Positions 26,468-56,184 of a stretch of DNA of 64,000 nucleotides are shown here, one piece after another. The stretch comes from a virus. The position numbers and the translations under genes are program-made. Where the stretch lies: the IMG/VR virus record IMGVR_UViG_3300034152_001291, positions 1-64,000 of that record; one strand, written 5' to 3'. Each line of letters starts with the position of its first letter. The stretch's first letter is position 1. A model generated the notes under the pieces. That model did no database searches and was not told where the DNA came from. It saw only the letters and a program-made list of their open reading frames with translations.

Positions 26468-26482
26468 TCGGGGAGCGCAAGA

Positions 26483-30625: not shown

Positions 30626-30649
30626 AGCCACGCTCAGTCTTCTGAGTGG

Positions 30650-30688
30650 GGACCCGAGAGGACTCGTTCCTCCGGGTCCTTTTTTTTT
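30650..30688 (+). terminator. Rho-independent terminator
   Basis: GGACCCG...CGGGTCC stem + T9. Confidence 0.8.
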
Positions 30689-30691
30689 CAT

Positions 30692-30723
30692 AAAAAAAAA
30701 CCGGGCAGCGCCGACTGCCCGGT
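30692..30723 (-). terminator. Rho-independent terminator (convergent)
   Basis: CCGGGCAG/CTGCCCGG stem preceded by A9 on the plus strand. Confidence 0.8.
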
Positions 30724-30757
30724 ATTCCCGCCACGCCGGGGCGGGTTTGGAGAGGGA

Positions 30758-31243: not shown

Positions 31244-31276
31244 TGGGTCTCCTTTCAAAGAGCTGTCTCTCATCTT

Positions 31277-31285
31277 TCTTATGAC
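31277..31285 (-). promoter_or_regulatory. GTCATAAGA motif copy 6
   Basis: Exact 9-mer. Confidence 0.7.
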
Positions 31286-31295
31286 GCAGAGATCT

Positions 31296-31325
31296 AAAAA
31301 ATTGGGACCCACGAAGGGTCCCAAT
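31296..31325 (-). terminator. Rho-independent terminator
   Basis: ATTGGGACCC/GGGTCCCAAT 10-bp stem with adjacent A-run. Confidence 0.7.
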
Positions 31326-31433
31326 CGAAAGGAGGCCCAGGAGGCTCGCCTCCAAGGCAGTCCCGGGAAGCATCCCGGGTTGGCCGTGGAGTGGCCTACT
31401 CCACGGCGTCCGACCTATCGGACGATCCTCATG

Positions 31434-31535
31434 CTACTTCTTTCGAAGCATCTTCCGGAGCTTCCTGCCCAGGCGTCGCCCGAGAAAGAAAGAGTCCTGG
31501 AAGAGCATGAGGAAGCTGTGGTAATTCTTACGCAC
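31434..31535 (-). CDS. 33-aa basic peptide MRKNYHSFLMLFQDSFFLGRRLGRKLRKMLRKK
   Basis: AAAGGAGG RBS 5 nt before GTG; lies between motif copy 7 and a terminator; below the ORF-track cutoff. Confidence 0.5.
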   Translation of the reverse strand: MRKNYHSFLMLFQDSFFLGRRLGRKLRKMLRKK

Positions 31536-31560
31536 AGCTGCCTCCTTTCTGCCACGGTTC

Positions 31561-31588
31561 TTGATCGCCTCCATGAAGTGTTTACACT
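31561..31588 (+). promoter_or_regulatory. sigma70-like promoter TTGATC-N16-TACACT
   Basis: Upstream of 31651. Confidence 0.55.
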
Positions 31589-31619
31589 ACAGGAGAGCGA
31601 AAAGGCTCCGTGGCATTGT

Positions 31620-31628
31620 TCTTATGAC
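31620..31628 (-). promoter_or_regulatory. GTCATAAGA motif copy 7
   Basis: Exact 9-mer. Confidence 0.6.
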
Positions 31629-42068: not shown

Positions 42069-42521
42069 ATGAAGAACAACCGAAGCTTGGTGAGTTCCGC
42101 CGAGACCCAGACGCTTCTCAGAAATCTCGGGGAGCCCGCCCTCATCGCGGGTAGGATCGATCCCCTCGAGGAAGAAGGGCAGGCTACGATCGTCGAGCTG
42201 GTCCCCTCCATTCCCGAGCACAGGGCGGCGTACGAGGAGATCCACAACAACCCGGACAAGTTCGAGGTCGTGCATGAGACGGACTTCGGAGGGCGGGGCA
42301 AGTGCCACGTGCTGGTGAGATTCGTGAGGAAGGGTCCATGGGACATCAATCTTCCTTCGCCTTCCGGGGATTCGCCGAAGAGATCCAGAAGATCGCCGAC
42401 TGGAGGGAAGAAGTCCTCGGTGATGGGGTTCGGAGCGACGCCCAAGAAGTCCTCCCCGAAGAAGGAGGCGCCCAAGAAAAAATCGCCCGCAAAAAGAAAA
42501 AGGAAGAAGACGGGGCGCTGA
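42069..42521 (+). CDS. hypothetical protein; basic tail overlaps next gene
   Basis: ORF track. Confidence 0.5.
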   Translation: MKNNRSLVSSAETQTLLRNLGEPALIAGRIDPLEEEGQATIVELVPSIPEHRAAYEEIHNNPDKFEVVHETDFGGRGKCHVLVRFVRKGPWDINLPSPSGDSPKRSRRSPTGGKKSSVMGFGATPKKSSPKKEAPKKKSPAKRKRKKTGR

Positions 42522-42790
42522 CGCTCGGCGCGGCGGGCGCCGGGCTGGGGATCGGCGGGGGGCTTGCCTCCCATCTCAGGAAGTACCGGGCTCAGAAGAA
42601 GGAGTGGCTCGCAGGACGGGCCAGTCCTCCCATCCACCCCAAGAGCGTCAAGGTCTGGGATTACCTCAGGCGTCCTTCCATGATCACGCCGAGCCTGGCC
42701 CGTCGCATCATGGGCGGGGCCGCCGCCGGGGCCGGGACCGCTCTCGCCTTGAATGAGATCCTCAAGCGTCTAAAGAAGCGCAAGAAATGA
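42338..42790 (+). CDS. putative virion protein with GFAEEIQKIA leader and two glycine-zipper segments
   Basis: GAGG RBS; LGAAGAGLGIGGGLA, GGAAAGAGTALA; stop overlaps the RNAP start. Confidence 0.7.
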   Translation: MGHQSSFAFRGFAEEIQKIADWREEVLGDGVRSDAQEVLPEEGGAQEKIARKKKKEEDGALTLGAAGAGLGIGGGLASHLRKYRAQKKEWLAGRASPPIHPKSVKVWDYLRRPSMITPSLARRIMGGAAAGAGTALALNEILKRLKKRKK

Positions 42791-45700
42791 TCAACGCCGA
42801 CCAGCAGTTTCCGGAGATGATGAAGCGGGTGGAGAACGCGATCTCCCGCGCTTTTCCCATCGAGTCCAAGCGGCACGTCATGGACGTCCGGAACCTGCGT
42901 TGGAAGAACTTCGGGCCTTCGATCCGGGACAACATCCGGCTTCAGAAAGAGTTCAAGAACAAGGACAAGACCCTCTCCGCCGACCTGGTCGGGGACGTGA
43001 GGATCCGGTCGAGAGCGGGGAGGGTGGTCGACACCAAGCCCGGCATGGTGCTCGTCACCCTCCCTCACATTACCAACCGGGCCTCCTACATCGTCAACGG
43101 CCACGAGGTGCAGACGGTGAACCAGCTCCGGCTGCGCCCGGGCCCCTACTCGAGGTTCACCTCCGACGACAACACGGAGACCTTCATCAATGCGGCGGGC
43201 GGAGGTTATAAGATCATCTTCAACCGCCAGACGGGCGTGCTCCGCTTGAAGTCCGGCTCCTCATTCTTCTACCTCTACCCGATCCTGAAGAGCCTCGGCG
43301 TCACGGACGCGCAAATGAAGTCGGCGTGGGGTGGCGATATCTTCACCGCTAACAAGGCGCACGACAAGAGCGATCAGGTTACGCGCCTCTACCGGAACAT
43401 GCGTCCTTACGCCGAGATCCCGGAGGATCCGGAGGAGCTGTCCACCGCCGTCGACACCTTCTTTCGTTCGAAGCAGCTCGACCCGAAGATCTCCAAGATC
43501 ACGATGGGGAAGGAATACGATCGGATCTCTCCCGACCTTCTTCTCCGGTCCAGCGGGAAGGCGATCGACCTGGCCAAGGGCAGCGTGGAGATGGACGACA
43601 CCGAGTCGCTCGCTTTCAAGTCCATCCACAGCGTCGAGGATTTCATCCCCGAGAGAATCGAGAAGGCCATCCCGAGCGTGAAGCGCGCGATCCAGTTCAA
43701 GATGGACAGGGCCCCCAAGATCTCGAGCCTTCTCTCTCCCGCGTCCTTCTCCAATCCCGTGATCGATTGGTTCATCACGAGCGAGTTCACCCGCTACTCG
43801 GACCAGCAGAATCCCGTGGACATGGCGTCGACGAGCCAGCTAACGACCACCATGGGAGAGGGAGGAATTCGAAGCGCCCACGCCGTGACCGACCAGGTGC
43901 GCATGGTTCACCCCTCCCAGATGGGTTTCTTGGATCCCATTCACAGCCCGGAGGGTGGTCGGATCGGTGTGACGGGGCACCTCACGATCGGAGCGGAGAA
44001 GAAGGGCGACAGCCTCTACACCAAGGTCATCGACGCGAAGACCGGCCGCCAGGTCTCGAAGAGCGCTCAGGACCTCGAGAACGCGGTCATCGCCTTCAAT
44101 GACCAGTACGACCTGACTGGGGACCGGCCACGTCCCTTGAAGCCGAGGGTGGAGGTCCGGGCAAAGGGGAAAATTCAGATTGTTCCAGCGTCGCAGGTCG
44201 AGTACGTCTTCAGGGATCCCAGGTCGTTCTTCTCGGTCACGTCGAACGCGATTCCCTTCCTCCACAACAACAACCCCAACCGCGGGCAGATGGCGGACCG
44301 CCACATCGAGCAGACCGTCCCCCTGACCGATCCGGACAGTCCCGTGGTTCAATCCAAGTTTCAAGGCAAGGAGGGCTTCGACGACTTCTTCGGCCGGAAC
44401 GTGAGCATCCAGTCCCCGGTGGATGGGACGGTCACCCTGGTTCGGAACGACCGGCTCAAGATCCGGGGAGACGACGGAAAGATGTACCTGGCCTACCTTC
44501 ACTACCAGTACCCCCTGAACGGAGGTTCGTTCCTCACGGACAGGCCGACCGTGAAGGCGGGGGACCGCGTCAAGAAAGGGCAGGTCATCGCGGAGAACAA
44601 CTTCTCGAAGGGAGGGGCGCTGGCTCTCGGCAAGACGCTCAGGACAGCTTACGTTCCTTACAAGGGCTACAACTTCGAGGACGGGGTGGTCATCTCCCAG
44701 GCCGCCGCGAGGAAGCTGACTTCCGAGCACCAGTATCAGCTCAGGCTCGACATCGACAGGAACACCAGGGTGGGGCTCGACATCTTCCTCGCGCACTTCC
44801 CGGACGAGATCGTGAACATCGATCGGGCCAAGTACGATCGGGACGGGATAGTCAGGAAGGGAAGCCGGGTCACCAAGGATGAGATCCTGGTCCCGGCCGT
44901 GTCCCAGACCGAGGTCAGCGAAGAATTCGACTACGCCCGTCTTCACAAGTCGCTGAAGAAGCCGTGGCGCAACGCCTCCATCGTGTGGGAGAGCGACTTT
45001 CCGGGTGAGGTCGTGGACGTCGTGAAGACCTCGAAATTCATCAAGGTGTTTCTTCGAACGGAGGAAGCTGCGCAGGTGGGCGACAAGGTCTCCCAGCGAT
45101 CAGGCGGGAAGGGAATCATCGTCAACATACTCCCGGATAATGAGATGCTCCAAGGAGAGGACGGGAAGCCGGTGGATGTCCTCTTCAATCCCGGGGGCGT
45201 CACGGGGCGCGTGAATCCGGGACAGCTCTACGAAGCGAGCATGGGGAAGGTCTCGAGGAAGACCGGCGAGAAGTACCTGGTGGAGAACTTCTCTCCGGAG
45301 TCGTCTCTCGACCGCGTTCAGGCGGAGATGCGAAAAGCGGGCGTCAAGGATACCGAGACGCTCACGGATCCCGGCACGGGGAACAAGATCAACGATATTT
45401 TTACGGGCGACATTCACTTCCTGAAGCTCCAGCATCAGGTTCGGAACAAGTTCAAGGCGAGAGGCCTCGGCAGTTACACGACGGACGAGCAGCCGAGCAA
45501 GGTCGGGAAGGAGTCGGCACAGAACATCGGATCTGGGGAGCTCTACGCTCTTCTCGCCTCGGGAGCCATGCACTTCCTGAAAGACACGACGACACTGAAG
45601 TCGCAGTCGAATCCTGAATACTGGCGCGCCCTTCAGACCGGCCTCCCCACGCCGCCCCCGCAGCAGCCTTTCATTCTCGACAAGTTCGTCACGAGTCTGG

Positions 45701-48700
45701 AGGGGGCCGGCGTCAACCTGGCCCGCGAAGGATCGAAGGTGAAGGCCCTCCCCATGACGGACAAGGACGTGGAGTCCCGGTCCAGGGGAGAGATCAAGAA
45801 CTTCACCGTGGTCCGGGCGTCAGACTTGAAGCCGGAGGCCGGAGGGCTCTTCGACAAGGGGATCACGGGAGGCTACGACGGGGTCCACTGGGCCCATATC
45901 GATCTCGAGACCCCCATGCCGAGCCCGCTCATGGAGAAGGCCCTGATCGCGGTCGCGGGCCTGAAGCCCGCCGAGTACAAGTCGATCATGCGAGGCACGC
46001 TCTTCGTGACGAGGGACGGGCACTTGACGACGGACTCGAAGAAGGGGGCGCCGGCGGGAGAAGGCCTGAAGATTCTCCTCGATAAGGTCAATGTGGAGAG
46101 GGATCTCGAGGATACGATTTCCCAGATCCGGATCGCCCGGGGCAGCAGGCTGGACGACCTGAACAAGAAGCGTCGCTACCTCCAGGCCCTGAAATCGTCG
46201 AAGCTCACGCCCTCCGAGGCCTACATCACAAGCAAGGTCCCCGTGATCCCGCCCAAGTTCAGGCCGGTCTACCCCCTGCCGGACGGGTCTCTGAACGTGG
46301 CCGACCCTAATCACGGGTATCGTGAAGTCCTGATGATCAACAATCAGCTGAAGGCGCTGAGGAATCAGGGTGTCGACAACAGGAATCTCGCTTCCATGCG
46401 GGCGGATCTCTACGGGGCTCTCCAGGGGTTGACGGGCATGACGGAGCCTCTCACCAGGGCCAAGAACTTCAGGGGCTTCGTCTCGACCATCAAGGGGAGG
46501 TCGAACAAGAGAGGGCTGTTCCAGGGAAAGGTGGTGAAGAGGCCCCAGGACCTCTCCGGGCGCTCTACGGTGATCCCCGATCCGAATCTCGGAATCGACG
46601 AGGTGGGTCTTCCGGCCGACATGGCGCTGACCATCTACAAGCCGTTTTTGGTGCGCCGTCTCGTGGGCATGGGCTACAAGCCCACCGAGGCCATGGATCT
46701 CGTCGACAAGAAAGATCCGAAGGTTTTGGACATCCTGAAGGACGAGGCGGCGGAGCGCCCGGTCTGGATGAATCGCGCGCCGAGCCTTCACAAATTCAGC
46801 ATGCTTCCCTTCAGGCCGAGGATCGCTCCCGGCAAGGCGATCCAGGTCAATCCCCTCATCGTGAAGGGGTTCAACATGGACTTCAACGGGGATTCCTGCT
46901 CGCCCGATACCGTCGTTTACGTTCGGCGTGTCTCCGATAGAACATTATTCGTGGGGTCTTTCGATGAATTTGTGAAGAACGAGCTCTTGCCTGGAATCGA
47001 TGACGCCGGTTTGGAGGAGATAGCCGGGGGCGTCACTGGAATTCTTGAGTTCGCTGATTCAGCTTATGAGGTCCTGGGACTTTTCGAGGGGAAAATTGCG
47101 TGGCAGCCTTTGAACCAGATAACGATACACACATCTCACGGGCCATGCTTTGAAGTCTCGTTCAAATCCGGTGACACTTTGATCTGTTCCGAGCACCACA
47201 ATCTATTCGGGGTGGATCCAGATACCCTCGATCTTTTCACTTTCAAAACCGAAAAGCATGAGGAGTATCCCGACGTTGTCGTCCCTATCGTCTCATTGTG
47301 GGATTCCGAACCGGTCGGCAACGCAAGGATTCCGGCCCTGGACTCGGGCAGGCGGCTGGATACTGTCCCTGTCGATGACGATTTGGCCTGGTGGACGGGA
47401 GTCTATGTTGGGGAGGGAAGCCTGACCGGACGGAATGATATCGTATCCTGTTCGTCTTCCGATCCGGAGATGCTTGGCCAGATCAAGATCGCTATGGAAC
47501 GCATTGGGCCCGTGTGGGAAACAGATAACCAGGTGAGGATAACAAGTAAAGATCTCTTCAAGGCTTTTGAGAGTGCTTTCGGAAAGGGAAGCCAGAACAA
47601 GAAGTTTCCGGATTTCGTCTTCGAGATGCCTCCGGCGCTTCGGTTGCAGGCCGTTGTCGGTTTCCTCGACGCGGAAGCACAGGCCGCATTTGATATCAAC
47701 GGTCGTCCATTCTTGACGGTAGAATTGACGAGTCTCCAGGCTCTCCGGCAAGTATCCATGTTGATGAGAAGCGTAGGCATCCGGAGCTCCATAAGAGAAG
47801 GTCGACCGGAAAAAACCGGAAGGAAGAAGACCTGGATTCTTTACGTTGAGAAATCCGGATTCGGGCTTCTTCCAAACTTTCGATCAAAATCGAAAAAAGA
47901 ATGGCAGGCTAAAGTTCGAAACTTTTCTGAAATCTCCAGAAGTCGGATGGATATGGTTCCAATGTTCGATTCGGTCTTCTCGGCTCTCACGAAGAAAGGC
48001 CTGGAGAATAGGACAGAGGATAAAAAGACGCGGGCCGAACGCAGAGCGTGGGCGAAAGAGTATGCTTCCAGCCATGGAGTTCCTTTCGGGCCTGTATCGA
48101 AAAGCGATCTTGTCGGGCATTCTTTGATAACACGTCGAGCCGCGTTCAGAATTGCGGCCTGGTACGGTCCATTCGAGAAGGATTCTCTTCTCGACAAGTG
48201 GAGATCCCTGGTGGAGAACACTTCCGTATCGTACACGGAGATTTCTTGCCGAGAAATCGACCGGCTCCCGATCCTTTACGATTTCAGCGTTCCTCCGAAT
48301 GAAGCCTTTGTTGTCAACTCTGGAATCGTGACGCACAACACCGTCGGCATCCATGTCCCCGTCAGCGAGGAGGCCCGGCAGGAGGCTTTCCAGAAGCTTC
48401 CGTCCAAGCAGCTGCTCTCGGTCCGGGAGCAGTCGGCGGTCCACACTCCGTCGAAGGAATATGTCCTCGGTCTCTACCTCATGACGCATCCCAAAGGAAA
48501 GACTGTCACGGCGAAGTCTCGTACCGACATGATGGCCCAGTATCAGGCCAAGAAGATCAAGGTGAACACGCCCGTGAAGATAGGGTCGGATATCTGGACG
48601 CCGGGCCAGGCTCTGGTCGACGATGTCTTTCCCGTAGGGCTGAAGCCCGGCAACAGGGTGATGGACAAGAGGACGGTGGAGACCCTTCTCTTCGAGGTCG

Positions 48701-50247
48701 CCAGAAAGGAGCCCAACAAGGCCGGTGACGTCATCAGCAGGATCAAGGACCTCGGCGCTCATTTCGTGACCGAGATCGGCTACTCCTTCGGGCTCGAGGA
48801 CCTCAAGTTCGACTACAAGAAACGCGAGCAGATCCTGGATGAGGCCGAGAAGAAAACGCCCAAGATCGGTTTCGAGAAGGCCTACGGGCAGGCTCTTGAC
48901 AAGATGAACAGCGAGATTCGGAAGACGAAAGGGAATCGGGTCGTCGAAGGCAGCATCACTTCGGGAGCTTTCGGCAAGGCCGACATGGTCACGCAGATGA
49001 TTGCCACGCCCGTGGCGGTCCGGGACCACAAGAATGAGATCATCCCGGTCCCTATCAAACGATCGTTTGCGGAAGGGCACGGAATTTCGAGCTACTGGGC
49101 AACGGCGCCGGGGGCTCGCAAGGGTCTGATCGAGAAGGGCCTCGGCACGGCGGAGACGGGAGCGCTGAGCAAGCGCCTGATCAACACCACCGTCACGCAG
49201 ACAATCAGCATGAAGGACTGCGGCACGACCGAGGGAACTCTGATGCCGATCGAGTCCCGCGACGCGCTGGACCACTTCGTCGCCGACGGCCCGTTCAAGA
49301 AGGAGGCGATCACGTCCGAGCTCGTGACACAGATGAAGCGACGCGGCCTGAAGCAGGTGCTCGTTCGGTCTCCGCTGAAGTGCGAGGCTCCCCAGGGAGT
49401 CTGCGCGATGTGCTTCGGCCTGCTGGAAAACGGGAAGGTCCCGCCGATCGGCTACAACGTGGGCGTCCTTTCGGGCCAGGCCGTCTCGGAACCCATGACC
49501 CAGCTCACTCTGAGGGCCTTCCATACGGGCGGAGCAATGGCGCAGAAGGCGGTCGGCTTCGACCGGATCAAACAGATTTTCGAACTCCCGGAGAATCTCC
49601 CTGGACGCGCCCCGCTCGCTCAGACCACGGGCAAGGTCGAATCGATCGACCCGGCTCCCGGCGGGGGTTGGATCGTGGTCATCGGGGGTGTGGACCATTT
49701 CGTGCCTCAGGAGCGCGGGCTCGGGGTGAAGAGAGGCGACAGGGTCTTGGCGGGTCAGCAGATCTCCAAGACCGGGGTCATTCGCCCTCAGGAACTACTC
49801 GCAGCCACGAACGACATCGATAAGGTTCGTGGCCAGATGGTGAAGGATCTCAACAAGGAGTTCGGGACGGGTGGTGTCCATATTCAGCGAAAGCTCCTCG
49901 AGACCGTCGTGCGCCCGATGACTGATCGAGCTGAGGTGACGGACGCCGGCGACGGAGAAAAGAAGGGCTACTTCAAGGGGGACGTCGTCGCCATAAACAA
50001 GCTCGAGAAGACGAACAAGGAGATCCGTAAGGCCGGCGGGAAACCGATCGAATATCAGCCCACTCTTTTGTCCATCCGCGTCGCCCCGTATCATAGCGGC
50101 GACTTCATCGGGAAGCTGATGTTCGAGCGTCCTCACGAGACGATCTCGGCCGCCCCGAGGATCGGCGCCGAGGCGGATGTGGTGAAGGGACACCCGATCA
50201 CGCGCCACACGTTCGGTCGCTACTTTGGAGCTCGGAATAAGAAATGA
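42787..50247 (+). CDS. single-chain DNA-directed RNA polymerase, fused beta + beta' subunits, intein-containing
   Basis: beta: SPEG, IPFL.N...NR, GYNFEDG, GDK...GGKG, NP.GV.GR.N.GQ, KL.H.V; beta': PVIPP.FRP, DLSGRS, NRAPSLH, NMDFNGD, GARKGL, DCGT/RSPLKC/CAMC, EPMTQLTLRAFHTGG. Confidence 0.95.
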   Translation: MINADQQFPEMMKRVENAISRAFPIESKRHVMDVRNLRWKNFGPSIRDNIRLQKEFKNKDKTLSADLVGDVRIRSRAGRVVDTKPGMVLVTLPHITNRASYIVNGHEVQTVNQLRLRPGPYSRFTSDDNTETFINAAGGGYKIIFNRQTGVLRLKSGSSFFYLYPILKSLGVTDAQMKSAWGGDIFTANKAHDKSDQVTRLYRNMRPYAEIPEDPEELSTAVDTFFRSKQLDPKISKITMGKEYDRISPDLLLRSSGKAIDLAKGSVEMDDTESLAFKSIHSVEDFIPERIEKAIPSVKRAIQFKMDRAPKISSLLSPASFSNPVIDWFITSEFTRYSDQQNPVDMASTSQLTTTMGEGGIRSAHAVTDQVRMVHPSQMGFLDPIHSPEGGRIGVTGHLTIGAEKKGDSLYTKVIDAKTGRQVSKSAQDLENAVIAFNDQYDLTGDRPRPLKPRVEVRAKGKIQIVPASQVEYVFRDPRSFFSVTSNAIPFLHNNNPNRGQMADRHIEQTVPLTDPDSPVVQSKFQGKEGFDDFFGRNVSIQSPVDGTVTLVRNDRLKIRGDDGKMYLAYLHYQYPLNGGSFLTDRPTVKAGDRVKKGQVIAENNFSKGGALALGKTLRTAYVPYKGYNFEDGVVISQAAARKLTSEHQYQLRLDIDRNTRVGLDIFLAHFPDEIVNIDRAKYDRDGIVRKGSRVTKDEILVPAVSQTEVSEEFDYARLHKSLKKPWRNASIVWESDFPGEVVDVVKTSKFIKVFLRTEEAAQVGDKVSQRSGGKGIIVNILPDNEMLQGEDGKPVDVLFNPGGVTGRVNPGQLYEASMGKVSRKTGEKYLVENFSPESSLDRVQAEMRKAGVKDTETLTDPGTGNKINDIFTGDIHFLKLQHQVRNKFKARGLGSYTTDEQPSKVGKESAQNIGSGELYALLASGAMHFLKDTTTLKSQSNPEYWRALQTGLPTPPPQQPFILDKFVTSLEGAGVNLAREGSKVKALPMTDKDVESRSRGEIKNFTVVRASDLKPEAGGLFDKGITGGYDGVHWAHIDLETPMPSPLMEKALIAVAGLKPAEYKSIMRGTLFVTRDGHLTTDSKKGAPAGEGLKILLDKVNVERDLEDTISQIRIARGSRLDDLNKKRRYLQALKSSKLTPSEAYITSKVPVIPPKFRPVYPLPDGSLNVADPNHGYREVLMINNQLKALRNQGVDNRNLASMRADLYGALQGLTGMTEPLTRAKNFRGFVSTIKGRSNKRGLFQGKVVKRPQDLSGRSTVIPDPNLGIDEVGLPADMALTIYKPFLVRRLVGMGYKPTEAMDLVDKKDPKVLDILKDEAAERPVWMNRAPSLHKFSMLPFRPRIAPGKAIQVNPLIVKGFNMDFNGDSCSPDTVVYVRRVSDRTLFVGSFDEFVKNELLPGIDDAGLEEIAGGVTGILEFADSAYEVLGLFEGKIAWQPLNQITIHTSHGPCFEVSFKSGDTLICSEHHNLFGVDPDTLDLFTFKTEKHEEYPDVVVPIVSLWDSEPVGNARIPALDSGRRLDTVPVDDDLAWWTGVYVGEGSLTGRNDIVSCSSSDPEMLGQIKIAMERIGPVWETDNQVRITSKDLFKAFESAFGKGSQNKKFPDFVFEMPPALRLQAVVGFLDAEAQAAFDINGRPFLTVELTSLQALRQVSMLMRSVGIRSSIREGRPEKTGRKKTWILYVEKSGFGLLPNFRSKSKKEWQAKVRNFSEISRSRMDMVPMFDSVFSALTKKGLENRTEDKKTRAERRAWAKEYASSHGVPFGPVSKSDLVGHSLITRRAAFRIAAWYGPFEKDSLLDKWRSLVENTSVSYTEISCREIDRLPILYDFSVPPNEAFVVNSGIVTHNTVGIHVPVSEEARQEAFQKLPSKQLLSVREQSAVHTPSKEYVLGLYLMTHPKGKTVTAKSRTDMMAQYQAKKIKVNTPVKIGSDIWTPGQALVDDVFPVGLKPGNRVMDKRTVETLLFEVARKEPNKAGDVISRIKDLGAHFVTEIGYSFGLEDLKFDYKKREQILDEAEKKTPKIGFEKAYGQALDKMNSEIRKTKGNRVVEGSITSGAFGKADMVTQMIATPVAVRDHKNEIIPVPIKRSFAEGHGISSYWATAPGARKGLIEKGLGTAETGALSKRLINTTVTQTISMKDCGTTEGTLMPIESRDALDHFVADGPFKKEAITSELVTQMKRRGLKQVLVRSPLKCEAPQGVCAMCFGLLENGKVPPIGYNVGVLSGQAVSEPMTQLTLRAFHTGGAMAQKAVGFDRIKQIFELPENLPGRAPLAQTTGKVESIDPAPGGGWIVVIGGVDHFVPQERGLGVKRGDRVLAGQQISKTGVIRPQELLAATNDIDKVRGQMVKDLNKEFGTGGVHIQRKLLETVVRPMTDRAEVTDAGDGEKKGYFKGDVVAINKLEKTNKEIRKAGGKPIEYQPTLLSIRVAPYHSGDFIGKLMFERPHETISAAPRIGAEADVVKGHPITRHTFGRYFGARNKK
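46894..48339 (+). mobile_element. intein with LAGLIDADG homing endonuclease (482 aa) in RNAP
   Basis: Starts SCSPDTVV, block B CSEHH, WTGVYVGEG and VVGFLDAEA, ends LYDFSV...IVTHN followed by Thr; visibly lower GC. Confidence 0.92.
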
Positions 50248-51545
50248 TCTCTGTGGGAGAGGTTACGCAGCCCGTCCCCAGCAAGAGAGCCTACCTTGTC
50301 AGCTTCTACAACGGGACCGAGCAGCTCTGCCAGACGGGAAATTTCGGGATCGAGGTCACCTATGATGTAGGAGACCAGGTCGTCTGCGTGACCCCCACCT
50401 CGGGCGTGCGGCAGGGTCCCATCATCCTCTGCCGGATAAATCCGCCCGCCATCCCCAACAAAGACAAGGAGAACCTGGGCAAGAGCGTCTTGCAGCTCCT
50501 CGCCGAGGAGGAAGAGAATCTCATCGCAAACGCCGTTCAGGGGTACCAACCGGACGGCATCCCCGACTGGGGGCGGGTCGAGGACAGGAACCCCCTCTCG
50601 ATCGGTGATATCCAGACGAGGAGCCGGACGTCGGAGGCCTTCAGCCAGATCACACCGGACGGGTCCATCATCAACTTCGTGAACGAGCTCCTACACCTCG
50701 TCCTGGCTTCCAGGAAGAGCGCCGCGATCCTCCGGATGAAAGAGCTGTTCATGGATGTGATCCCGGGCTTCCGCCTGAACGTCGGCGAGGTCTCGGATCC
50801 CGAGATTCAGAAGCCGGACGCCCCCAAGAGGATCGAAGACAAGAAGGTGAGGCTGGAATCTTTCCTGGCTTCGGATCCGGAGGAGCCCAATACGCTGGAT
50901 TTCGGCGCGCTTCTGGGGGCCTTGAATCCGAATGACGACCCCAAGTTCGGGCAGAGTCAGGCCACTCGGGGAAAGAGGTTCAAGAGAGGAGGCAGGATCC
51001 GTCTCGGCGATCTCGGGGTTTTCGAGGTGGACCTGGACCAGAACGAGATCCGCTTCACCCTGAGCCGCAGCGATGCCCCCGGTCTTTACCAGATACGCCT
51101 GAACAAGGAGGAGGCTGTCTTCTCCTGGGGGAGCCAGTTCGTGTCGTTCAGAGACGAGGGCCTTCTGATCAAGGCCGACATGATCGGCCTCGCGGGCCCA
51201 TGGGGGATGTGGTCACCCGAGACCGTGGCCGGCTTCACACACGATGTTCAGCCGGACGAACAGACCTTCCAGCCGATCGCCGAGTGGAAGACTTCGGCGG
51301 GGGAGAGCGGCATCAAGTTCAGCCGGAGCGTATACTTCGGTAGTAAAGAGGAGCCGGCGATCCTGGAGGGATACATTGACACGTTCTTGAAGCCCCAGCT
51401 GGAACTGTTGGGCGCCCACACGCACAATGTGACGGCTGTCGGGGCCCCCACGGGGCCCATGCTGCCGCCGATAACGGTGCTGAACTCCTTGATCCAGGAA
51501 CCGACGGTTGACACGTACCTCAGCCTGGTGAAAATCGCTCTGTAG
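50244..51545 (+). CDS. probable baseplate central spike (gpV/gp138-like)
   Basis: N-terminal OB-fold-like VGDQVVC...PIIL; C-terminal AHTH...GAPTGP apex motif. Confidence 0.55.
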   Translation: MISVGEVTQPVPSKRAYLVSFYNGTEQLCQTGNFGIEVTYDVGDQVVCVTPTSGVRQGPIILCRINPPAIPNKDKENLGKSVLQLLAEEEENLIANAVQGYQPDGIPDWGRVEDRNPLSIGDIQTRSRTSEAFSQITPDGSIINFVNELLHLVLASRKSAAILRMKELFMDVIPGFRLNVGEVSDPEIQKPDAPKRIEDKKVRLESFLASDPEEPNTLDFGALLGALNPNDDPKFGQSQATRGKRFKRGGRIRLGDLGVFEVDLDQNEIRFTLSRSDAPGLYQIRLNKEEAVFSWGSQFVSFRDEGLLIKADMIGLAGPWGMWSPETVAGFTHDVQPDEQTFQPIAEWKTSAGESGIKFSRSVYFGSKEEPAILEGYIDTFLKPQLELLGAHTHNVTAVGAPTGPMLPPITVLNSLIQEPTVDTYLSLVKIAL

Positions 51546-51555: not shown

Positions 51556-53319
51556 ATGACGACGAGTATCGACGGAAAGCCCCTCTTCATCACGAAAGAC
51601 GCCATCGCCGGCGACTTCGAGAAGACGGCGATGTACCGTTTGAGCCGCGACCCCTCCCAGTGGGAGAGGGAGATTCTGACCTTCCTGCACGAGCAGCAGC
51701 CCTTCCTCCAGGACTACGACGTGCGCGTTCACATGAACAAGACCGATCCTGATACTGGGGCCGGGGTGGGCCAAGTCGTCATCGAGGACAAGGTCGCCGT
51801 CCCCGTCATCATCGAGAACTTCAAGCTCTACCCTCTCGACATCTTCTGGCACGAGGACAAGCTGAAGCCCATGACCAAGCCGTCGATCATGTCGGCGCTC
51901 CAGACGATCTCCATCGGCAAGTCGGTGGAGCCGGGGCGGGGCGAGATCAGCGACATGAGCATCTACAACCTGACCCGTGCCCCCTTCTCGGGGAAGTACA
52001 GCTTCGCCGAGGGGCTCACGTACTCGCTCGACGATCTCCAGAGGATGGTCGAGACCCTCGGGGACGAGGGCTTCGAGTACGCGATGCGGTCCAACTTGAT
52101 GTTCAAGGAGGCCTTCGTCTCCTACGTCACGGGGGCGCAGGAAGGTCCCATCGAGAAGACCGCCCAGGACGAGAAGGGAGACGTCAGGGAGGTGGATTTC
52201 ACGCCCTACTACCCCGTCCAGTCAGCGGGCCTCCACGCGGTGGTCCGCGGCGGCCTCGACAAGGCGGCGGCCTTCGTCTTCGACCAGGTCATGGACTGGG
52301 ACGGAAATCTCGAGGAAGGTCGGAAGATGGCTCTCTGCCTGGACGACGGGTCGTACGCGATCCAGGAGTCCTTCGCCGGGCTCCCCATCGAGTCCGATGG
52401 GCTCGAGAAGAACGCGGAGGCCATGGATCCCTCCCGTCCGAGAAAGGGGGATGTGGGATTTTTCTGGCGCGTCAAGGAGGGCAGCGCCGTGGCTATGCGC
52501 CCGGCGGCGGTTCTCTATTCGGGAAGCGGGGAGGACTACGTGCCCTACGTCAAGGTGGCTGCATTGGGGTTCGATGGGAAGGAGAGAAGCATCTACCAGG
52601 GAGAGGCCTACCGGGACGCACTCGTCGTGGGTGAGGGGGTTTTCCTCTCCTCCGACTGGAACTGGACCAAGCTGGGGCGGGCCCGCACGCTCTCCGACCC
52701 TGCGGAGGCCAACCGGTTCGAGTGGCCGGATGGGGTTGCGAGCATTCACCGCCAGGGCTCCGGTCTCCGGGTCGAGGGTCTCGACGGATTTCCCAAGTAC
52801 GCCGAGAGCGAGAAGGTGGTGAAGGGAAAGCTCGAGAAGATCATGGCCCCGGAGATTCTCGGCACACTCCTCAAGAAGGCCAAGGGCGGCGGGAGCGTCT
52901 ACTTCGTCTTCACCAAGAGAGGGGTGGTCAAGGAGGCGTCCGAGCGTAAGCGCGACGCCCTGGTCAAGGTGGCCGGCACCCGGCTTGGACCCGTGAACCT
53001 GGTCCAAGCGGCAGCTCACCTGAAGCCGGCCCGCTATGACTTCTTCAAGCTGGCGGTCGACTTCGACGAGGAGAAGACCAAGAAGACCATCGACTCGGTC
53101 CTGAGCCTGAACTTCATCAATGATGACAACCTCTACAAATTCGTGGAGAATACATCGGATCTGGAGGAGGCAGTCGATGCCCTGGCGAAACTCCTGATCG
53201 GGGCGCGCCTCGGTCTCGACATCGAGGACTCTCCCATTCGGACCGCCCTCTTCTCGATGGACGAGGTGGTCAGGCAGCTGAAGCACTTGGGGTCCCAGGT
53301 GTATGGCGAAGAAAGCTAA
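51556..53319 (+). CDS. putative head/internal protein with many K-x-A motifs
   Basis: AGGAGG RBS; FEKTA, IEKTA, LDKAA, LEKNA, VKEAS, LVKVA, FFKLA. Confidence 0.75.
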   Translation: MTTSIDGKPLFITKDAIAGDFEKTAMYRLSRDPSQWEREILTFLHEQQPFLQDYDVRVHMNKTDPDTGAGVGQVVIEDKVAVPVIIENFKLYPLDIFWHEDKLKPMTKPSIMSALQTISIGKSVEPGRGEISDMSIYNLTRAPFSGKYSFAEGLTYSLDDLQRMVETLGDEGFEYAMRSNLMFKEAFVSYVTGAQEGPIEKTAQDEKGDVREVDFTPYYPVQSAGLHAVVRGGLDKAAAFVFDQVMDWDGNLEEGRKMALCLDDGSYAIQESFAGLPIESDGLEKNAEAMDPSRPRKGDVGFFWRVKEGSAVAMRPAAVLYSGSGEDYVPYVKVAALGFDGKERSIYQGEAYRDALVVGEGVFLSSDWNWTKLGRARTLSDPAEANRFEWPDGVASIHRQGSGLRVEGLDGFPKYAESEKVVKGKLEKIMAPEILGTLLKKAKGGGSVYFVFTKRGVVKEASERKRDALVKVAGTRLGPVNLVQAAAHLKPARYDFFKLAVDFDEEKTKKTIDSVLSLNFINDDNLYKFVENTSDLEEAVDALAKLLIGARLGLDIEDSPIRTALFSMDEVVRQLKHLGSQVYGEES

Positions 53320-54378: not shown

Positions 54379-56184
54379 ATGAAAATCTCCTACGAAGATC
54401 CCGTCTCCAGCGGAATCCGCCGCGCGATCAATCCGGACAAGTTCCGGGTATGGGACACCCCTTCCTGTTCGGGAGACCTGGTCCAGGAGGGGGTGGTCGA
54501 TGTCGCCAAGGATTTCGAGTTCGAGCAGGCCTTCGAGGATAATGAGATCCTCCTCGAGGGGAAATACTCGGACTTCGCCCAGCACCTCGTGACGATCAAC
54601 CGGAAGCCCTTGTCTCTCGAGGGGCGGGAATACCTGAAGCCGATCTACGACCAGTACGAGGAGTTTCCCCGGGGATCGAAAGACATCGTCCTTGTCGCGG
54701 GAAGGCAGGTCGAGAAGTCCAGCTCGATGGCGTCCATTGCCATCACGCGCTGCTGTGTGATCCCCTCCCATACCGTGCTGGTCATCCAGCCCCGGGACGC
54801 CCAGACCAAGATCTTCAGCCAGCAGCGCTTCGACCCGATGGCCACCGACTCCGAGGTCCTTCAGGAGCTTTTCCTCGGGACCAAGAACGTGTGGCAGGTC
54901 GGCGCCAAGATCTTCAACAACGGTTCGGTCGCCAACTTCAAGTCCTGCTTCTATTCGGCGGACCCCATCCGGGGCATCACGTCGGGCGATCTCTTCATCG
55001 ACGAGTTGCAGGACGTGATATCGGACAACATCCCCGTTCTCGAGGAGTGCCAGTCCCACATCTTCCCCGAGGACCGGTTCAACCTCTACGCCGGGACGCC
55101 GAAGACGACCTCCAACACCCTGAACCTCCACTACAAGGAGACATGCCAGTTCGAGTGGATGGTGAAGTGCCAGGGCTGCAAGCACTACAACTTTCTCGAT
55201 GCGAAGGTCATCGGGAAGCACCACTACATCTGCTCGAGGTGCGGGAAGCAGATCTATCCTCTCCTGCACGGGGAGTGGGTCGCGATGCGCCCGAGCAAGA
55301 TCGACGATCGGTGGGGATTTCGCGTGTCGCAGATCATGGTCCCCTTCATGCGTCACAGCGAGGTCCTCAACAAGATGGAGAACCCGAACATCCCGACACG
55401 GGTTTTCCACAACGAGGTCCTCGGCCTCTCTTACGACGTGGGGCAGCTTCTCCTGACGGAGGGGGACATCCTCCGTCGTTGCGAGCCCAGGGTCCCCGAC
55501 ACGCACGAGACGATTCACAAGAGGAGGGATGTCTTCCTCTGCGCCGGGGTGGATCACGGGACCGGGGACTTCGCGGCAGGGGGCATGACGGATCTGGGTG
55601 TGGCCCGGAAGGCCTCCACCCGCCCCTCGTTCACTGCGATAGCGCTCGGCGGTTTCTGCTCCGACAACAAGTTCAGGATCTTCCGGCTGATCAAGTTCAC
55701 GGGGGAGATGGCGAATCTCGCCCGGCAGCCCGAGTTCATCGACGAGGTCATCCGATCCTATGGGGCGAAGTGGATCATGTCCGACCACGGTTTCGGCGCC
55801 CATACGAACGCCAGACTGGTGTCGGACCATGGCTGGACCCGCGTGGAGGACGAGCTGAATCCCCTTCTCATGGAGTGCGAATACTCGGGGATCCAGAAGA
55901 TTCCCGTGAAGTGGCACTCCCGAGCCTACCGCTACATCGTCCAGCGGAACTTCGCGATCGAGCACACCGTGGACGGGATCAAGAAGGGCGAGATCCTCTT
56001 CTTCAACGAGGGGGAGATGAAGCCCTACCTGGACGACTTCACGACCATGTTCACGGAGTACGATTTCAGGAGCAAGTCGGTTCGTTACGACCACGTCCTG
56101 CCGGACGACTGTTTCCAGGCCGTGGTCTACTGTTATCTGGCCGCCTTGCAGCGGCGGGGGAGGCTCACCCCCAGCTACGGTTAG
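54379..56184 (+). CDS. terL: terminase large subunit
   Basis: Walker A variant AGRQVEKSS, Walker B LFIDE, AGTP, CxxC pairs, nuclease AGVDHG and PDDCFQA. Confidence 0.88.
   Translation: MKISYEDPVSSGIRRAINPDKFRVWDTPSCSGDLVQEGVVDVAKDFEFEQAFEDNEILLEGKYSDFAQHLVTINRKPLSLEGREYLKPIYDQYEEFPRGSKDIVLVAGRQVEKSSSMASIAITRCCVIPSHTVLVIQPRDAQTKIFSQQRFDPMATDSEVLQELFLGTKNVWQVGAKIFNNGSVANFKSCFYSADPIRGITSGDLFIDELQDVISDNIPVLEECQSHIFPEDRFNLYAGTPKTTSNTLNLHYKETCQFEWMVKCQGCKHYNFLDAKVIGKHHYICSRCGKQIYPLLHGEWVAMRPSKIDDRWGFRVSQIMVPFMRHSEVLNKMENPNIPTRVFHNEVLGLSYDVGQLLLTEGDILRRCEPRVPDTHETIHKRRDVFLCAGVDHGTGDFAAGGMTDLGVARKASTRPSFTAIALGGFCSDNKFRIFRLIKFTGEMANLARQPEFIDEVIRSYGAKWIMSDHGFGAHTNARLVSDHGWTRVEDELNPLLMECEYSGIQKIPVKWHSRAYRYIVQRNFAIEHTVDGIKKGEILFFNEGEMKPYLDDFTTMFTEYDFRSKSVRYDHVLPDDCFQAVVYCYLAALQRRGRLTPSYG

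What the first reader, a model, noticed from the sequence alone, without database searches (positions are those of the whole stretch)
42787..50247. Single-polypeptide bacterial-type beta-beta' RNA polymerase embedded in the virion operon
Seen: all major RpoB motifs followed by RpoC motifs in one ORF, about 2004 aa after intein removal, much shorter than cellular beta plus beta'. It overlaps (ATGA) a leader-bearing gene upstream and a spike-like gene downstream. No alpha or sigma gene is visible in the window. Known: phiKZ-type RNAPs are split into several subunits, crAss-type virion RNAPs are highly diverged, and N4 vRNAP is T7-like. Inference: a minimised, still clearly bacterial-like fused enzyme that is packaged and injected to transcribe early genes.
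Basis: partly seen in the sequence, partly recalled or inferred. Interest (0 to 1): 0.82.

Follow-up and report, generated by a model that had tools for sequence, protein, structure and literature searches.

The report
Single-chain phage RNA polymerase with intein
A large uncultured phage encodes both big subunits of a bacterial-type RNA polymerase as one protein, interrupted by a self-splicing intein; it belongs to a widespread, little-studied phage family that has its own sigma factor and probably carries the enzyme inside the virus particle.

Summary
ORF 42787-50247 (+) encodes 2486 aa: a complete RpoB-like module joined directly to an RpoC-like module. A 482-aa LAGLIDADG intein (nt 46894-48339) sits right after the catalytic loop, so the mature enzyme has 2004 aa.

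It is not a one-off. At least 485 IMG/VR stretches encode relatives. In 78 of 79 fetched loci the whole enzyme lies in one frame, between the portal gene and the terminase gene.

The closest cultured relatives are Salmonella phage Arash and Vibrio phages D69/D148/D181 (about 30% identity, enzyme in two chains). The published Arash virion proteome detects the polymerase more than any other protein.

The genome has two sigma-70-family genes. One of them is conserved in 5 of 5 complete relatives and is virion-detected in Arash. Alpha and omega are absent.

A conserved promoter-like 9-mer, GTCATAAGA, precedes all non-structural transcription units.

My reading is a virion-delivered, sigma-dependent, single-chain holoenzyme. 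Packaging is inferred, not shown.

One oddity: the catalytic loop reads DFNGD. Asp-to-Asn loops occur only in intein-bearing alleles.

This scan has already reported the same kind of enzyme in at least 8 other genomes.

The parts
42787..50247 (+). Single ORF of 2486 aa: the precursor of the fused beta-beta' RNA polymerase, including its intein
42787..45741 (+). Beta (RpoB-like) module, about aa 1-985. The core is complete but lacks the E. coli lineage insertions SI1 and SI2. The rifampicin-pocket residues are changed.
   Evidence: PDB beta chains align to aa 54-994. Family profile against E. coli beta. Rif cluster I alignment.
45742..46893 (+). Beta' N-terminal part, about aa 986-1369, joined to beta with essentially no linker. 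The zinc-binding domain is missing and the clamp helices are retained.
46873..46893 (+). Catalytic Mg loop, reading NMDFNGD. The middle Asp is Asn (codon AAC at 46885).
46894..48339 (+). Intein of 482 aa: Ser1, C-terminal His-Asn, +1 Thr. The LAGLIDADG homing-endonuclease domain is at nt 47659-47847. GC is 51.4% against 60.9% in the exteins.
48340..50247 (+). Beta' C-terminal part (635 aa plus the stop codon): bridge helix and trigger-loop region, with the second Zn site Cys2145/2199/2206/2209. It lacks SI3 and the E. coli C-terminal tail.
42338..42790 (+). Small upstream gene of about 150 aa with Gly/Ala-rich hydrophobic stretches. Its stop overlaps the polymerase start (ATGA).
50244..51545 (+). 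Downstream gene of 433 aa whose start overlaps the polymerase stop (ATGA). There is a weak lead to baseplate protein V or a central spike.
   Evidence: no PHROG or Pfam match
51556..53319 (+). Conserved downstream partner gene of 587 aa, a homologue of the Arash virion protein gp218
   Evidence: Present downstream on the same strand in 62 of 79 loci. Profile hit to Arash gp218, E 2e-10. Fold not identified.
34087..35937 (+). Portal protein gene
   Evidence: tblastn to Arash gp204, E 7e-63. Upstream on the same strand in 63 of 79 loci.
54379..56184 (+). Large terminase subunit gene
   Evidence: phrog_675, E 8.5e-57. PF05876, E 5.7e-12. Downstream in 46 of 79 loci.
1227..31628 (-). Seven exact copies of the promoter-like 9-mer GTCATAAGA, starting at 1227, 4161, 6561, 18601, 19902, 31277 and 31620. 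All are intergenic and lie ahead of minus-strand genes.
   Evidence: 7 found against 0.15 expected. Two more copies lie outside the window. Relatives show the same strand rule.

Best explanation
Shown: the gene encodes the phage's only multisubunit-type RNA polymerase as one chain. A full RpoB-like module runs straight into an RpoC-like module. The precursor is interrupted by a Ser1 LAGLIDADG intein right behind the catalytic Mg loop, so the active site can only form after protein splicing. The mature enzyme has 2004 aa.

The enzyme keeps the universal catalytic core and the beta' clamp helices. It has lost the beta' zinc-binding domain, the lineage-specific insertions and the beta' C-terminal tail. 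The genome and its complete relatives show no alpha or omega gene.

Inferred: the single chain replaces alpha-assisted assembly. The core works with a phage sigma-70-family factor. The conserved 232-aa sigma at 121121-121819 is the likely partner, giving a two-protein holoenzyme.

Inferred: the gene is made late, together with portal, terminase and capsid proteins. The enzyme and the sigma are then packaged in the head and injected with the DNA. There they would start transcription of the minus-strand (early and replication) units from the phage-specific promoter GTCATAAGA, without needing the host polymerase. A second, RpoD-like sigma is encoded on the minus strand at 76024-76875. It may then redirect the core to the plus-strand late genes.
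For: Identity of the enzyme:
- Pfam, NCBIfam and PDB matches cover nearly all of beta and beta'.
- Intein borders come from intein-free homologues.
- Domain losses and retained clamp helices come from a family profile aligned to E. coli.

One enzyme, no alpha or omega:
- There is one Rpb2_6 match in this genome and exactly one in each of 5 of 5 complete relatives.
- Alpha is found in 0 of 5 and omega in 0 of 5 complete relatives.

Sigma:
- Two sigma genes are present.
- The 232-aa sigma is found in 5 of 5 complete relatives.
- Its model (pLDDT 85.8) matches sigma A, S, 28 and 32 chains over its whole length.
- Its Arash orthologue is gp10.

Late or virion context:
- Both junctions are ATGA overlaps.
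- Portal lies upstream in 63 of 79 loci. The gp218-like gene lies downstream in 62 of 79 and terminase in 46 of 79. All are on the same strand.
- The neighbours match Arash virion proteins gp218, gp220, gp221, gp222 and the capsid protein.

Virion presence in a relative:
- In the Arash paper (passages seen) Gp206 is the most detected protein, with 128 unique peptides and 3516 spectra.
- Gp216 has 1210 spectra, sigma Gp10 has 467 and the portal has 877.

Promoter:
- There are 9 exact copies of the 9-mer in the genome. All are on the minus strand, intergenic and ahead of minus-strand genes.
- Seven lie in the window against 0.15 expected.
- In 3 relatives all 14 copies lie on the strand opposite the polymerase gene.
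- No sigma-70-consensus promoter was found in 1-20000, against 2.7 expected.
Against: - There are no expression, proteome or activity data for this phage. No sequencing run could be listed.
- The Arash proteome lists 116 proteins, including ribonucleotide reductases and ligases. It came from sucrose-gradient material. Its authors themselves allow carry-over of abundant infection proteins.
- No capsid-targeting signal was identified on the enzyme.
- The catalytic loop reads DFNGD, not DFDGD, which raises doubt about full activity.
- The record is only about 63% complete. A second polymerase or an alpha gene could lie in the missing part, although complete relatives have none.
- The RpoD-like second sigma is a separate gene in only 2 of 5 complete relatives.
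- A more distant phage, Cobetia phage Carin-5, keeps sigma, beta and beta' as separate genes among replication genes. Virion linkage is therefore not universal.
- The pairing of sigma with the promoter is pure inference.
Confidence: 0.55

Rival explanations
1. The enzyme is a non-virion polymerase. It is real and sigma-dependent, but it is made during infection only to transcribe middle or late genes. Host RNA polymerase starts the infection. Detection in Arash particles would then be carry-over of a very abundant protein.
For: - The Arash list of 116 'virion' proteins contains many metabolic enzymes, and the particles were purified by sucrose gradient only.
- No packaging signal was found.
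- In Carin-5 the sigma, beta and beta' genes lie in the replication module.
Against: - The position between portal and terminase is conserved in most of the 79 loci.
- The enzyme is the top-ranked protein in the Arash proteome. The spectra per residue that I worked out from the published counts are similar for both polymerase chains and sigma Gp10, and higher than for the portal.
- The conserved sigma lies in the plus-strand late block.
- No sigma-70-consensus promoters precede the early genes, whereas a phage-specific motif does.
Confidence: 0.28
2. The protein is catalytically impaired or dead. The Asp-to-Asn change in the Mg-binding triad, DFNGD, makes this copy a pseudo-enzyme or a decaying gene.
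For: - The middle Asp is Asn here, while all 134 distinct intein-free loops read DxDGD.
Against: - The 2486-codon frame is intact and every other conserved block is kept.
- It is the only polymerase gene found.
- The same DFNGD plus Ser1...THN intein combination recurs in alleles whose extein flanks are only 35-39% identical to this one. It has therefore been maintained over long divergence.
Confidence: 0.07
3. The gene is a recent capture of host rpoB-rpoC that was fused and is decaying.
For: - The order beta then beta' is the same as in bacterial operons and in the cellular fused forms.
Against: - Identity to bacterial enzymes is only about 27%.
- Scores are far below the NCBIfam equivalog cut-offs: 362 against 896 bits.
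- Hundreds of relatives share 36-86% identity.
- The family plus Arash and D69 is separated from three bacteria by long, supported branches.
- The extein GC equals the genome GC.
Confidence: 0.02

Closest known systems
RNA polymerase of Salmonella phage Arash (gp206 + gp216, with sigma gp10; OQ632216, PMC10585845) and of Vibrio phages D69, D148 and D181
   Same: - It is a homologous enzyme: about 29-30% identity, E = 0.
- The portal lies just upstream and the virion proteins gp218, gp220, gp221 and gp222 lie downstream.
- The sigma is orthologous.
- In my tree they group with the family.
   Different: - Arash and D69 have two chains. Beta plus the front of beta' forms one protein of about 1525 aa. 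The rest of beta' is a separate protein of about 606 aa, and other genes lie between them. The split corresponds to residue 1933/1934 here.
- The enzyme here is one chain and carries a catalytic-loop intein.
mReC, the multimeric-RNAP-encoding Caudovirales (Weinheimer and Aylward 2020, PMC7481178)
   Same: - These are IMG/VR and metagenome phage contigs that encode bacterial-like beta and beta', which branch apart from cellular enzymes (Results section read).
   Different: - In the text I read the paper does not mention a fused chain, sigma, inteins or virion location for mReC.
- Its capsid and terminase proteins matched PF07068 and PF03237. Here the capsid protein has no Pfam match and the terminase matches PF05876.
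- The contig lists are in supplements that I could not open.
phiKZ and AR9 virion and non-virion RNA polymerases
   Same: - They are phage-encoded multisubunit-type enzymes. A virion copy transcribes early genes independently of the host (reviews PMC7598289 in search listing and abstract only, and PMC13282480, passages).
   Different: - Those enzymes are split into four or five polypeptides, exist as two sets per genome and have no sigma-70 homologue (PMC13282480 passages).
- Here there is one chain, one copy and sigma-70-family partners.
crAss-like phage single-chain virion RNA polymerase (gp66 type), and the P23-45 RNA polymerase fused to the tape-measure protein (PMC10770324)
   Same: - Both double-psi beta-barrel modules lie on one polypeptide that is delivered by the virion. 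The crAss fusion is as described in PMC7481178 passages. For P23-45 I saw the abstract.
   Different: - Those enzymes are so diverged that RpoB and RpoC profiles do not detect them (PMC7481178 passage).
- This one matches Pfam and NCBIfam RpoB and RpoC models strongly.
Cellular fused beta-beta' (NCBIfam NF007172 and NF011417; recalled as the Helicobacter and Wolbachia types)
   Same: - The fusion has the same order, beta then beta', in one polypeptide.
   Different: - The cellular forms have about 2840-2890 aa and work with alpha and omega (recalled).
- This protein scores 347 bits against a cut-off of 5372 and 324 bits against 4632.
- It has 2004 aa and the phage has no alpha or omega gene.
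Cobetia phage Carin-5 sigma, beta and beta' genes
   Same: - It is a phage bacterial-like polymerase of almost the same total size (1083 + 927 aa), with an adjacent sigma gene.
   Different: - The subunits are separate, the genes lie among replication genes rather than next to the portal, and the branch in my tree is very long.

Membership tests
Bacterial-type multisubunit RNA polymerase catalytic core (RpoB + RpoC) | Beta and beta' domain sets are detected by curated profiles | tested here: met
   Rpb2_6 scores 178 bits, Rpb2_3 45.5, Rpb1_2 74.8 and Rpb1_5 84.8, all above the Pfam cut-offs. Rpb1_1 and Rpb1_3 fall below them. Bacterial rpoB models score higher than archaeal ones, 362 against 117 bits.
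Bacterial-type multisubunit RNA polymerase catalytic core (RpoB + RpoC) | Invariant NADFDGD triad of three Asp residues (the motif is named in PMC7481178; its role is recalled) | tested here: not met
   The loop reads NMDFNGD, with the middle Asp replaced by Asn. The closest intein-free homologue reads NADFDGD.
Bacterial-type multisubunit RNA polymerase catalytic core (RpoB + RpoC) | Orthology to cellular rpoB and rpoC (NCBIfam equivalog cut-offs) | tested here: not met
   362 bits against a cut-off of 896 for rpoB. 302.6 and 167.6 bits against 963.5 for rpoC.
Bacterial-type multisubunit RNA polymerase catalytic core (RpoB + RpoC) | Alpha dimer and omega as assembly partners | tested here: not met
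   PF01000 has no match in this record or in 5 of 5 complete relatives. PF01192 has no match in those 5. Very diverged versions could be missed.
Portal-linked phage RNA polymerase family (Arash type) | Sequence homology along the whole enzyme | tested here: met
   tblastn to Arash covers aa 18-1372, 1851-1933 and 1934-2481. Grouping in the tree has SH-aLRT 99.
Portal-linked phage RNA polymerase family (Arash type) | The gene lies between the portal and a gp218-like virion gene, on the same strand | tested here: met
Portal-linked phage RNA polymerase family (Arash type) | A gp10-type sigma factor co-occurs | tested here: met
   The sigma at 121121-121819 matches Arash gp10 with E 6e-15. It is present in 5 of 5 complete relatives.
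Portal-linked phage RNA polymerase family (Arash type) | The protein is present in purified virions | not testable with these tools
   Known only for Arash itself (PMC10585845).
mReC clade (PMC7481178) | Placement inside the mReC RNAP clade in the authors' tree, or being one of their 97 contigs | not testable with these tools
   The contig list and sequences are in supplementary datasets, which were closed.
mReC clade (PMC7481178) | Capsid protein of family PF07068 and terminase of family PF03237 (reported for those mReC in which they were detected) | tested here: not met
   The capsid homologue at 66286-67464 has no Pfam match. The terminase matches PF05876.
Class 1 intein with LAGLIDADG homing endonuclease | N-terminal Ser or Cys, C-terminal His-Asn, +1 Ser, Thr or Cys, and exteins that rejoin in register | tested here: met
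   Ser1370 starts the intein, which ends at His-Asn1851, and Thr1852 follows. Removing the intein restores exactly the spacing of intein-free homologues.
Class 1 intein with LAGLIDADG homing endonuclease | Endonuclease and splicing domains are detected by profile | tested here: inconclusive
   LAGLIDADG_3 scores 31.7 bits, above its cut-off of 22.5. Intein_splicing scores 19.3 bits, below its cut-off of 35.8. Splicing itself is untested.
Cellular fused beta-beta' (NF007172, NF011417) | Score above the equivalog cut-off | tested here: not met
   346.6 bits against 5372, and 324.2 bits against 4632.

The most novel reading that the evidence does not exclude
This family is the simplest natural bacterial-type transcription machine: one fused beta-beta' chain plus one conserved sigma, with no alpha or omega. 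It would be packed into the capsid and injected, and it would run the whole early programme from a conserved GTCATAAGA promoter. The single-chain design would be an adaptation for being threaded through the tail and refolding without subunit assembly. In intein-bearing alleles such as this one, the catalytic-loop intein and its linked Asp-to-Asn change would act as a maturation lock that keeps the enzyme silent until splicing.
Probability: 0.3. Interest if true: 0.8.

Novelty: new variant of a known kind. Interest (0 to 1): 0.58.

Why it matters
Current reviews describe phage multisubunit RNA polymerases as split into many pieces and lacking sigma homologues (PMC13282480 passages). This family shows the opposite design: one chain, a sigma-70-type partner, and no alpha or omega.

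It is common. I found 485 IMG/VR stretches, and complete relatives have genomes of about 190 kb.

If packaging and activity are confirmed, three things follow:
- It would be a compact two-protein bacterial-type holoenzyme suitable for structural and synthetic work.
- It would show how a bacterial-type core can assemble without alpha.
- It would be a new case of host-independent early transcription.

The catalytic loop is also a hot spot for several intein types. The strict link between Asp-to-Asn loops and inteins is an unexplained piece of intein and active-site biology.

Tried and rejected
Searches and tests that gave nothing:
- PHROG and Pfam scans of 20 neighbouring genes gave almost nothing beyond the terminase. 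Of ten genes outside the window only DNA polymerase A matched.
- The fold of the conserved partner gene 51556-53319 stayed unknown. The model reached pLDDT 75. The Atlas gave no usable hit. A profile search against PDB sequences gave nothing credible.
- Gene 118252-121134 against the Arash cell-wall hydrolase gp8 gave three colinear but insignificant matches, best E 0.035. This is a lead only.
- A possible plus-strand promoter, TATACT, has only 3 intergenic copies. That is too few to claim.
- The extein codons beside the intein show no clear compositional trace of co-conversion. Only the -1 codon, GAT, is AT-ending.
- No excess of sigma-70-type promoters or of terminators was found around the gene.
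- Sequencing runs: none was listed and no RNA holder was listed.

Literature searches for a description of the single-chain, sigma-linked, portal-adjacent enzyme were. I found mReC, Arash, reviews of phiKZ, AR9 and crAss, and P23-45. I found no paper on this architecture, nor on inteins at the NADFDGD loop. Subscription journals and supplements were not searchable.

Readings rejected: recent host capture, and a second polymerase set of the phiKZ kind.

Full report
THE OBSERVATION. The ORF list shows one ATG-started frame at 42787-50247 (+) of 2486 aa. Its translation has no internal stop.

Pfam finds RpoB-type domains first: Rpb2_3 at aa 337-403 and Rpb2_6 at aa 565-899 (E 3e-52). RpoC-type domains follow: Rpb1_1, Rpb1_2, Rpb1_3 and Rpb1_5. 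A LAGLIDADG_3 domain lies at aa 1625-1687, and an Intein_splicing match ends at aa 1851.

PHROGs gives two large 'unknown function' families (E 1e-99 and 6e-77) plus phage 'RNA polymerase beta subunit' families.

Solved bacterial beta chains align to aa 54-994. Beta' chains align to aa 1053-1369 and to nearly all of the part after the intein.

THE INTEIN AND THE MATURE ENZYME. The closest homologue, P0002 (86% identity, 1998 aa), has no insertion and reads ...GFNADFDGDTMGLHVPV. Here the loop reads ...GFNMDFNGD, then 482 residues, then TVGIHVPV.

The intein is therefore aa 1370-1851 (nt 46894-48339). It starts with Ser (SCSPDT), ends in His-Asn and is followed by Thr. Removing it restores the homologues' spacing exactly and gives 2004 aa.

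The intein has 51.4% GC (GC3 58%). The two exteins have 60.9% GC (GC3 81-85%) and the genome has 61.1%. The intein therefore looks like a later arrival.

WHAT IS KEPT AND WHAT IS LOST. I built a profile from every third of 75 intein-free family members and aligned E. coli beta and beta' to it. The names and roles of the E. coli regions below are recalled.
- Beta is covered from about residue 50 to 1338. The gaps are E. coli 230-419 (which holds SI1), 933-1047 (SI2) and 1128-1178.
- Beta' residues 29-63 align. Residues 64-149, which hold the four-Cys zinc-binding domain, are replaced by 29 profile positions.
- Beta' residues 150-948 and 1135-1346 align. SI3 and the last 60 residues have no counterpart.
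- The beta' clamp-helix region (E. coli about 262-309) aligns without gaps.
- Four Cys residues, 2145, 2199, 2206 and 2209, are invariant in my 13-sequence alignment. I take them to be the second zinc site.
- Beta runs into beta' with essentially no linker, near aa 980-995.
- In rifampicin cluster I, the positions of E. coli H526, R529, S531 and Q513 are T349, L352, T354 and R336, while D516 is kept. That these are resistance hot spots is recalled. Rifampicin insensitivity is an inference.

THE GENOME AND THE NEIGHBOURS. The window is the first 64 kb of a 124,703-bp IMG/VR virus record. The record is linear, with a CheckV completeness estimate of 63%.

My codon-usage-based gene calls give four blocks:
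- a minus-strand block of small genes at 1-19.8 kb;
- a long plus-strand block at 20-76 kb;
- a minus-strand replication block at 76-110.8 kb, which includes an intein-bearing DNA polymerase A;
- a further plus-strand block at 111-122 kb.

tblastn against the whole Arash genome identifies these genes:
- the portal at 34087-35937 (E 7e-63);
- the large terminase at 54379-56184;
- the major capsid protein at 66286-67464;
- several tail or baseplate proteins.

The terminase is also supported by phrog_675 and PF05876.

Profiles built from family loci link further genes to Arash proteins (61278-63890 to gp222 by tblastn):
- 51556-53319 to gp218;
- 53303-54373 to gp219;
- 56239-57360 to gp220;
- 57392-58066 to gp221;
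- 61278-63890 to gp222.

All of these except gp219 are listed in the Arash virion proteome. The polymerase gene overlaps both neighbours by ATGA. 'Embedded in the virion operon' is therefore correct.

THE FAMILY. A search of the 5.8-billion-protein collection with aa 1-1385 returned 444 proteins at E <= 1e-10 among the 8000 candidates scored. All 120 listed carry both Rpb2 and Rpb1 domains. They are 1549-3285 aa long, and most are close to 2000 aa.

In IMG/VR, 485 stretches encode a relative, and 79 loci were kept. In 78 of these 79 the whole beta-beta' match lies in one stop-free frame. Ten of those frames are cut by a contig end, and one locus (L046) is in two frames near the C-terminus.

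Within 10 kb, always on the same strand and in the same order:
- the portal homologue is upstream in 63 of 79 loci;
- the gp218-like gene is downstream in 62 of 79;
- terminase is downstream in 46 of 79.

Five relatives have complete genomes (CheckV 100%, 187-202 kb, three with terminal repeats). In these:
- each has exactly one Rpb2_6 match, in an open frame of 2056-2393 aa;
- none has an alpha match (0 of 5);
- none has an omega match (0 of 5).

No cultured phage in the August 2025 collection has the single-chain form. The nearest are Vibrio phages D69, D181 and D148 and Salmonella phage Arash. In these, beta plus the front part of beta' is one protein of about 1525 aa, and the rest of beta' is a separate protein of about 606 aa. 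The break corresponds to residue 1933/1934 here.

IT IS NOT A RECENT HOST CAPTURE. Identity to bacterial enzymes is about 27%. NCBIfam bacterial equivalogs score far below their cut-offs, 362 against 896 bits.

I built a quick maximum-likelihood tree of 18 rows with 1992 columns under LG+G4. It places the 12 family members with Arash and D69 on one side (SH-aLRT 99) and three bacteria on the other (SH-aLRT 100). Carin-5 sits on a very long branch. With only three bacteria this is a coarse test. The published mReC study made the same point with full sampling (PMC7481178, Results section read).

SIGMA FACTORS. The genome has two Sigma70_r2 matches.

The 283-aa protein at 76024-76875 (-) has regions 2, 3 and 4 and resembles RpoD and RpoS (E 3e-34, far below their cut-offs).

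The 232-aa protein at 121121-121819 (+) shows regions 2 and 3 by Pfam.
- Its family consensus has a region-4-like helix-turn-helix at the C-terminus.
- An AlphaFold model from 27 sequences reached pLDDT 85.8.
- That model matches sigma A, S, 28 and 32 chains over 226-280 columns with probability 1.00 and best E 2e-8.
- It is the orthologue of Arash gp10, E 6e-15.
- It is present in 5 of 5 complete relatives, E 4e-17 to 9e-59.

The RpoD-like sigma is a separate gene in only 2 of those 5. With the clamp helices retained, the enzyme most likely works as core plus phage sigma.

VIRION LOCATION. This rests on a relative. The Arash paper (passages and table rows seen) reports these counts:

| Protein | Unique peptides | Spectra |
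|---|---|---|
| Gp206 (polymerase; most detected protein, 100% coverage) | 128 | 3516 |
| Gp216 (polymerase) | 40 | 1210 |
| Gp10 (sigma) | 24 | 467 |
| Gp218 | not noted | 1149 |
| Portal | not noted | 877 |
| Capsid protein | not noted | 1333 |

I divided spectra by protein length myself. The two polymerase chains and the sigma give about 2.0-2.3 per residue, the portal about 1.5 and the capsid protein about 4.3. This is a rough indication of at least portal-level abundance.

Against this, 116 proteins were called virion proteins, including ribonucleotide reductases and RNA ligases. The particles came from a sucrose gradient plus pelleting. The authors themselves allow carry-over. Packaging is therefore plausible but not shown, and nothing is known for this phage.

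A PHAGE-SPECIFIC PROMOTER CANDIDATE. I followed a note from another first-stage reader. GTCATAAGA occurs 9 times exactly in the genome. All copies are on the minus strand and intergenic, 23-192 bases ahead of a minus-strand gene. Seven lie in the window against 0.15 expected, and 0 of 100 shuffles reached 7.

The copies share an A-rich element about 18 bases upstream and an RTG a few bases downstream. They precede all the non-structural transcription units. These are the early block, the small minus-strand island at 30.7-31.6 kb, the replication block (copy at 110857) and the last minus-strand unit (copy at 123465).

In three relatives whose polymerases are about 50% identical, the same 9-mer occurs 8, 4 and 2 times. 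All 14 copies lie on the strand opposite the polymerase gene, and reversed-pattern controls gave 0-1 per strand. Two more distant complete genomes have none.

No sigma-70-consensus promoter is found in 1-20000, against 2.7 expected. This fits a conserved phage factor that reads a conserved phage promoter. Which sigma reads it is inference.

PROPOSED MECHANISM. Steps marked [shown] have evidence above. Steps marked [inferred] do not.
1. [shown] Late expression produces the precursor together with head proteins, as the gene order indicates.
2. [inferred] The intein splices out and completes the active site.
3. [inferred, from Arash] The core and the 232-aa sigma are packaged and injected.
4. [inferred] The holoenzyme fires the GTCATAAGA promoters.
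5. [speculative] The minus-strand RpoD-like sigma then switches the core to the plus-strand late genes.
6. [speculative] Fusion into one chain would replace alpha-assisted assembly and would ease passage through the tail.

THE DFNGD ODDITY. I surveyed 199 sequences, the 120 proteins plus the 79 loci. They gave 161 distinct loops that my pattern recognised:

| Loop | State | Distinct loops | Intein features |
|---|---|---|---|
| DxDGD | no insertion | 134 | none |
| DxDGD | insertion directly after the loop | 17 | several intein types |
| DFDGN | insertion | 5 | always a Cys1 intein ending in Asp |
| DFNGD | insertion | 5 | always a Ser1 intein ending in Thr-His-Asn where the end was found |

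Among the 19 sequences my pattern missed, one more (L022) reads DYDGN plus an insertion. No intein-free loop has Asn.

This intein is only 29-30% identical to the other DFNGD-linked inteins, and the extein flanks are 35-39% identical. The combination is therefore old and maintained. It is not a sequencing slip or decay.

I cannot explain it. Possible explanations are hitch-hiking of the codon with the homing intein, selection for clean splicing next to an acidic loop, and later conversion of Asn-Gly to Asp. All three are untested.

COMPARISON AND NOVELTY. The enzyme works like a virion RNA polymerase of the phiKZ, N4 or crAss kind. In ancestry and partner it is a bacterial-type core with a sigma-70-family factor. 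It belongs with the Arash and D69 enzymes.

Membership of the published mReC set cannot be tested, because the supplements were closed. The reported mReC capsid and terminase families are not matched here.

My literature searches found no description of the single-chain, sigma-linked, portal-adjacent architecture, nor of inteins at this loop. A 2026 review still states that phage multisubunit polymerases lack sigma homologues.

The sequences themselves are public, and some are already labelled beta/beta' by JGI. This scan has reported the same kind of enzyme in at least 8 other genomes with the same reading.

I therefore rate it a new variant of a known kind, of moderate to good interest. This window is a typical member. 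What it adds are the DFNGD and Ser1-intein allele and a clear promoter motif.

Noticed in passing
window 46873-46893 and family-wide (P and L ids): Asp-to-Asn changes in the catalytic triad occur only in alleles with an intein right after the loop. DFNGD goes with Ser1...THN inteins and DFDGN with Cys1 inteins that end in Asp. That is 10 of 27 distinct insert-bearing loops against 0 of 134 intein-free loops. At least four intein types use this one site.
   Followed up: partly
window 61278-63890 (+): The 870-aa homologue of Arash virion protein gp222 carries a second intein: LAGLIDADG_3 at E 2e-10, plus Intein_splicing and Hint_2 matches.
   Followed up: no
genome 89817-93200 (-), outside the window (L091:5817-9200): The family A DNA polymerase also carries a LAGLIDADG insertion. 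This phage therefore has at least three intein-like insertions in essential genes.
   Followed up: no
window 1227, 4161, 6561, 18601, 19902, 31277, 31620 (minus strand); genome 110857, 123465: The exact 9-mer GTCATAAGA precedes every minus-strand transcription unit, with an A-rich element upstream and RTG downstream. The same strand rule holds in three relatives. It is a probable promoter for the phage's own holoenzyme.
   Followed up: yes
window 21517; genome 110906, 113772 (+): A TATACT-like hexamer precedes three plus-strand units. It might be a late promoter, but there are too few copies to judge.
   Followed up: partly
window 42338-42790 (+): The small protein just upstream of the polymerase has an N-terminal FAEEIQKIA-type helix, a Lys-rich stretch and two Gly/Ala-rich hydrophobic segments. 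In Arash a small ORF, gp205, holds the same position between portal and polymerase.
   Followed up: no
Arash OQ632216, gp217 (L008:41261-42679): In Arash a 'DNA helicase' directly follows the polymerase and gives as many spectra per residue as the polymerase in the virion proteome. No homologue was found in this record at tblastn E 1e-4.
   Followed up: partly
Cobetia phage Carin-5 PV155638 (L104:1133-7958): Sigma, beta (1083 aa) and beta' (927 aa) are adjacent, separate genes next to topoisomerase and DNA polymerase genes. The total size is almost the same as the fused enzyme here.
   Followed up: partly
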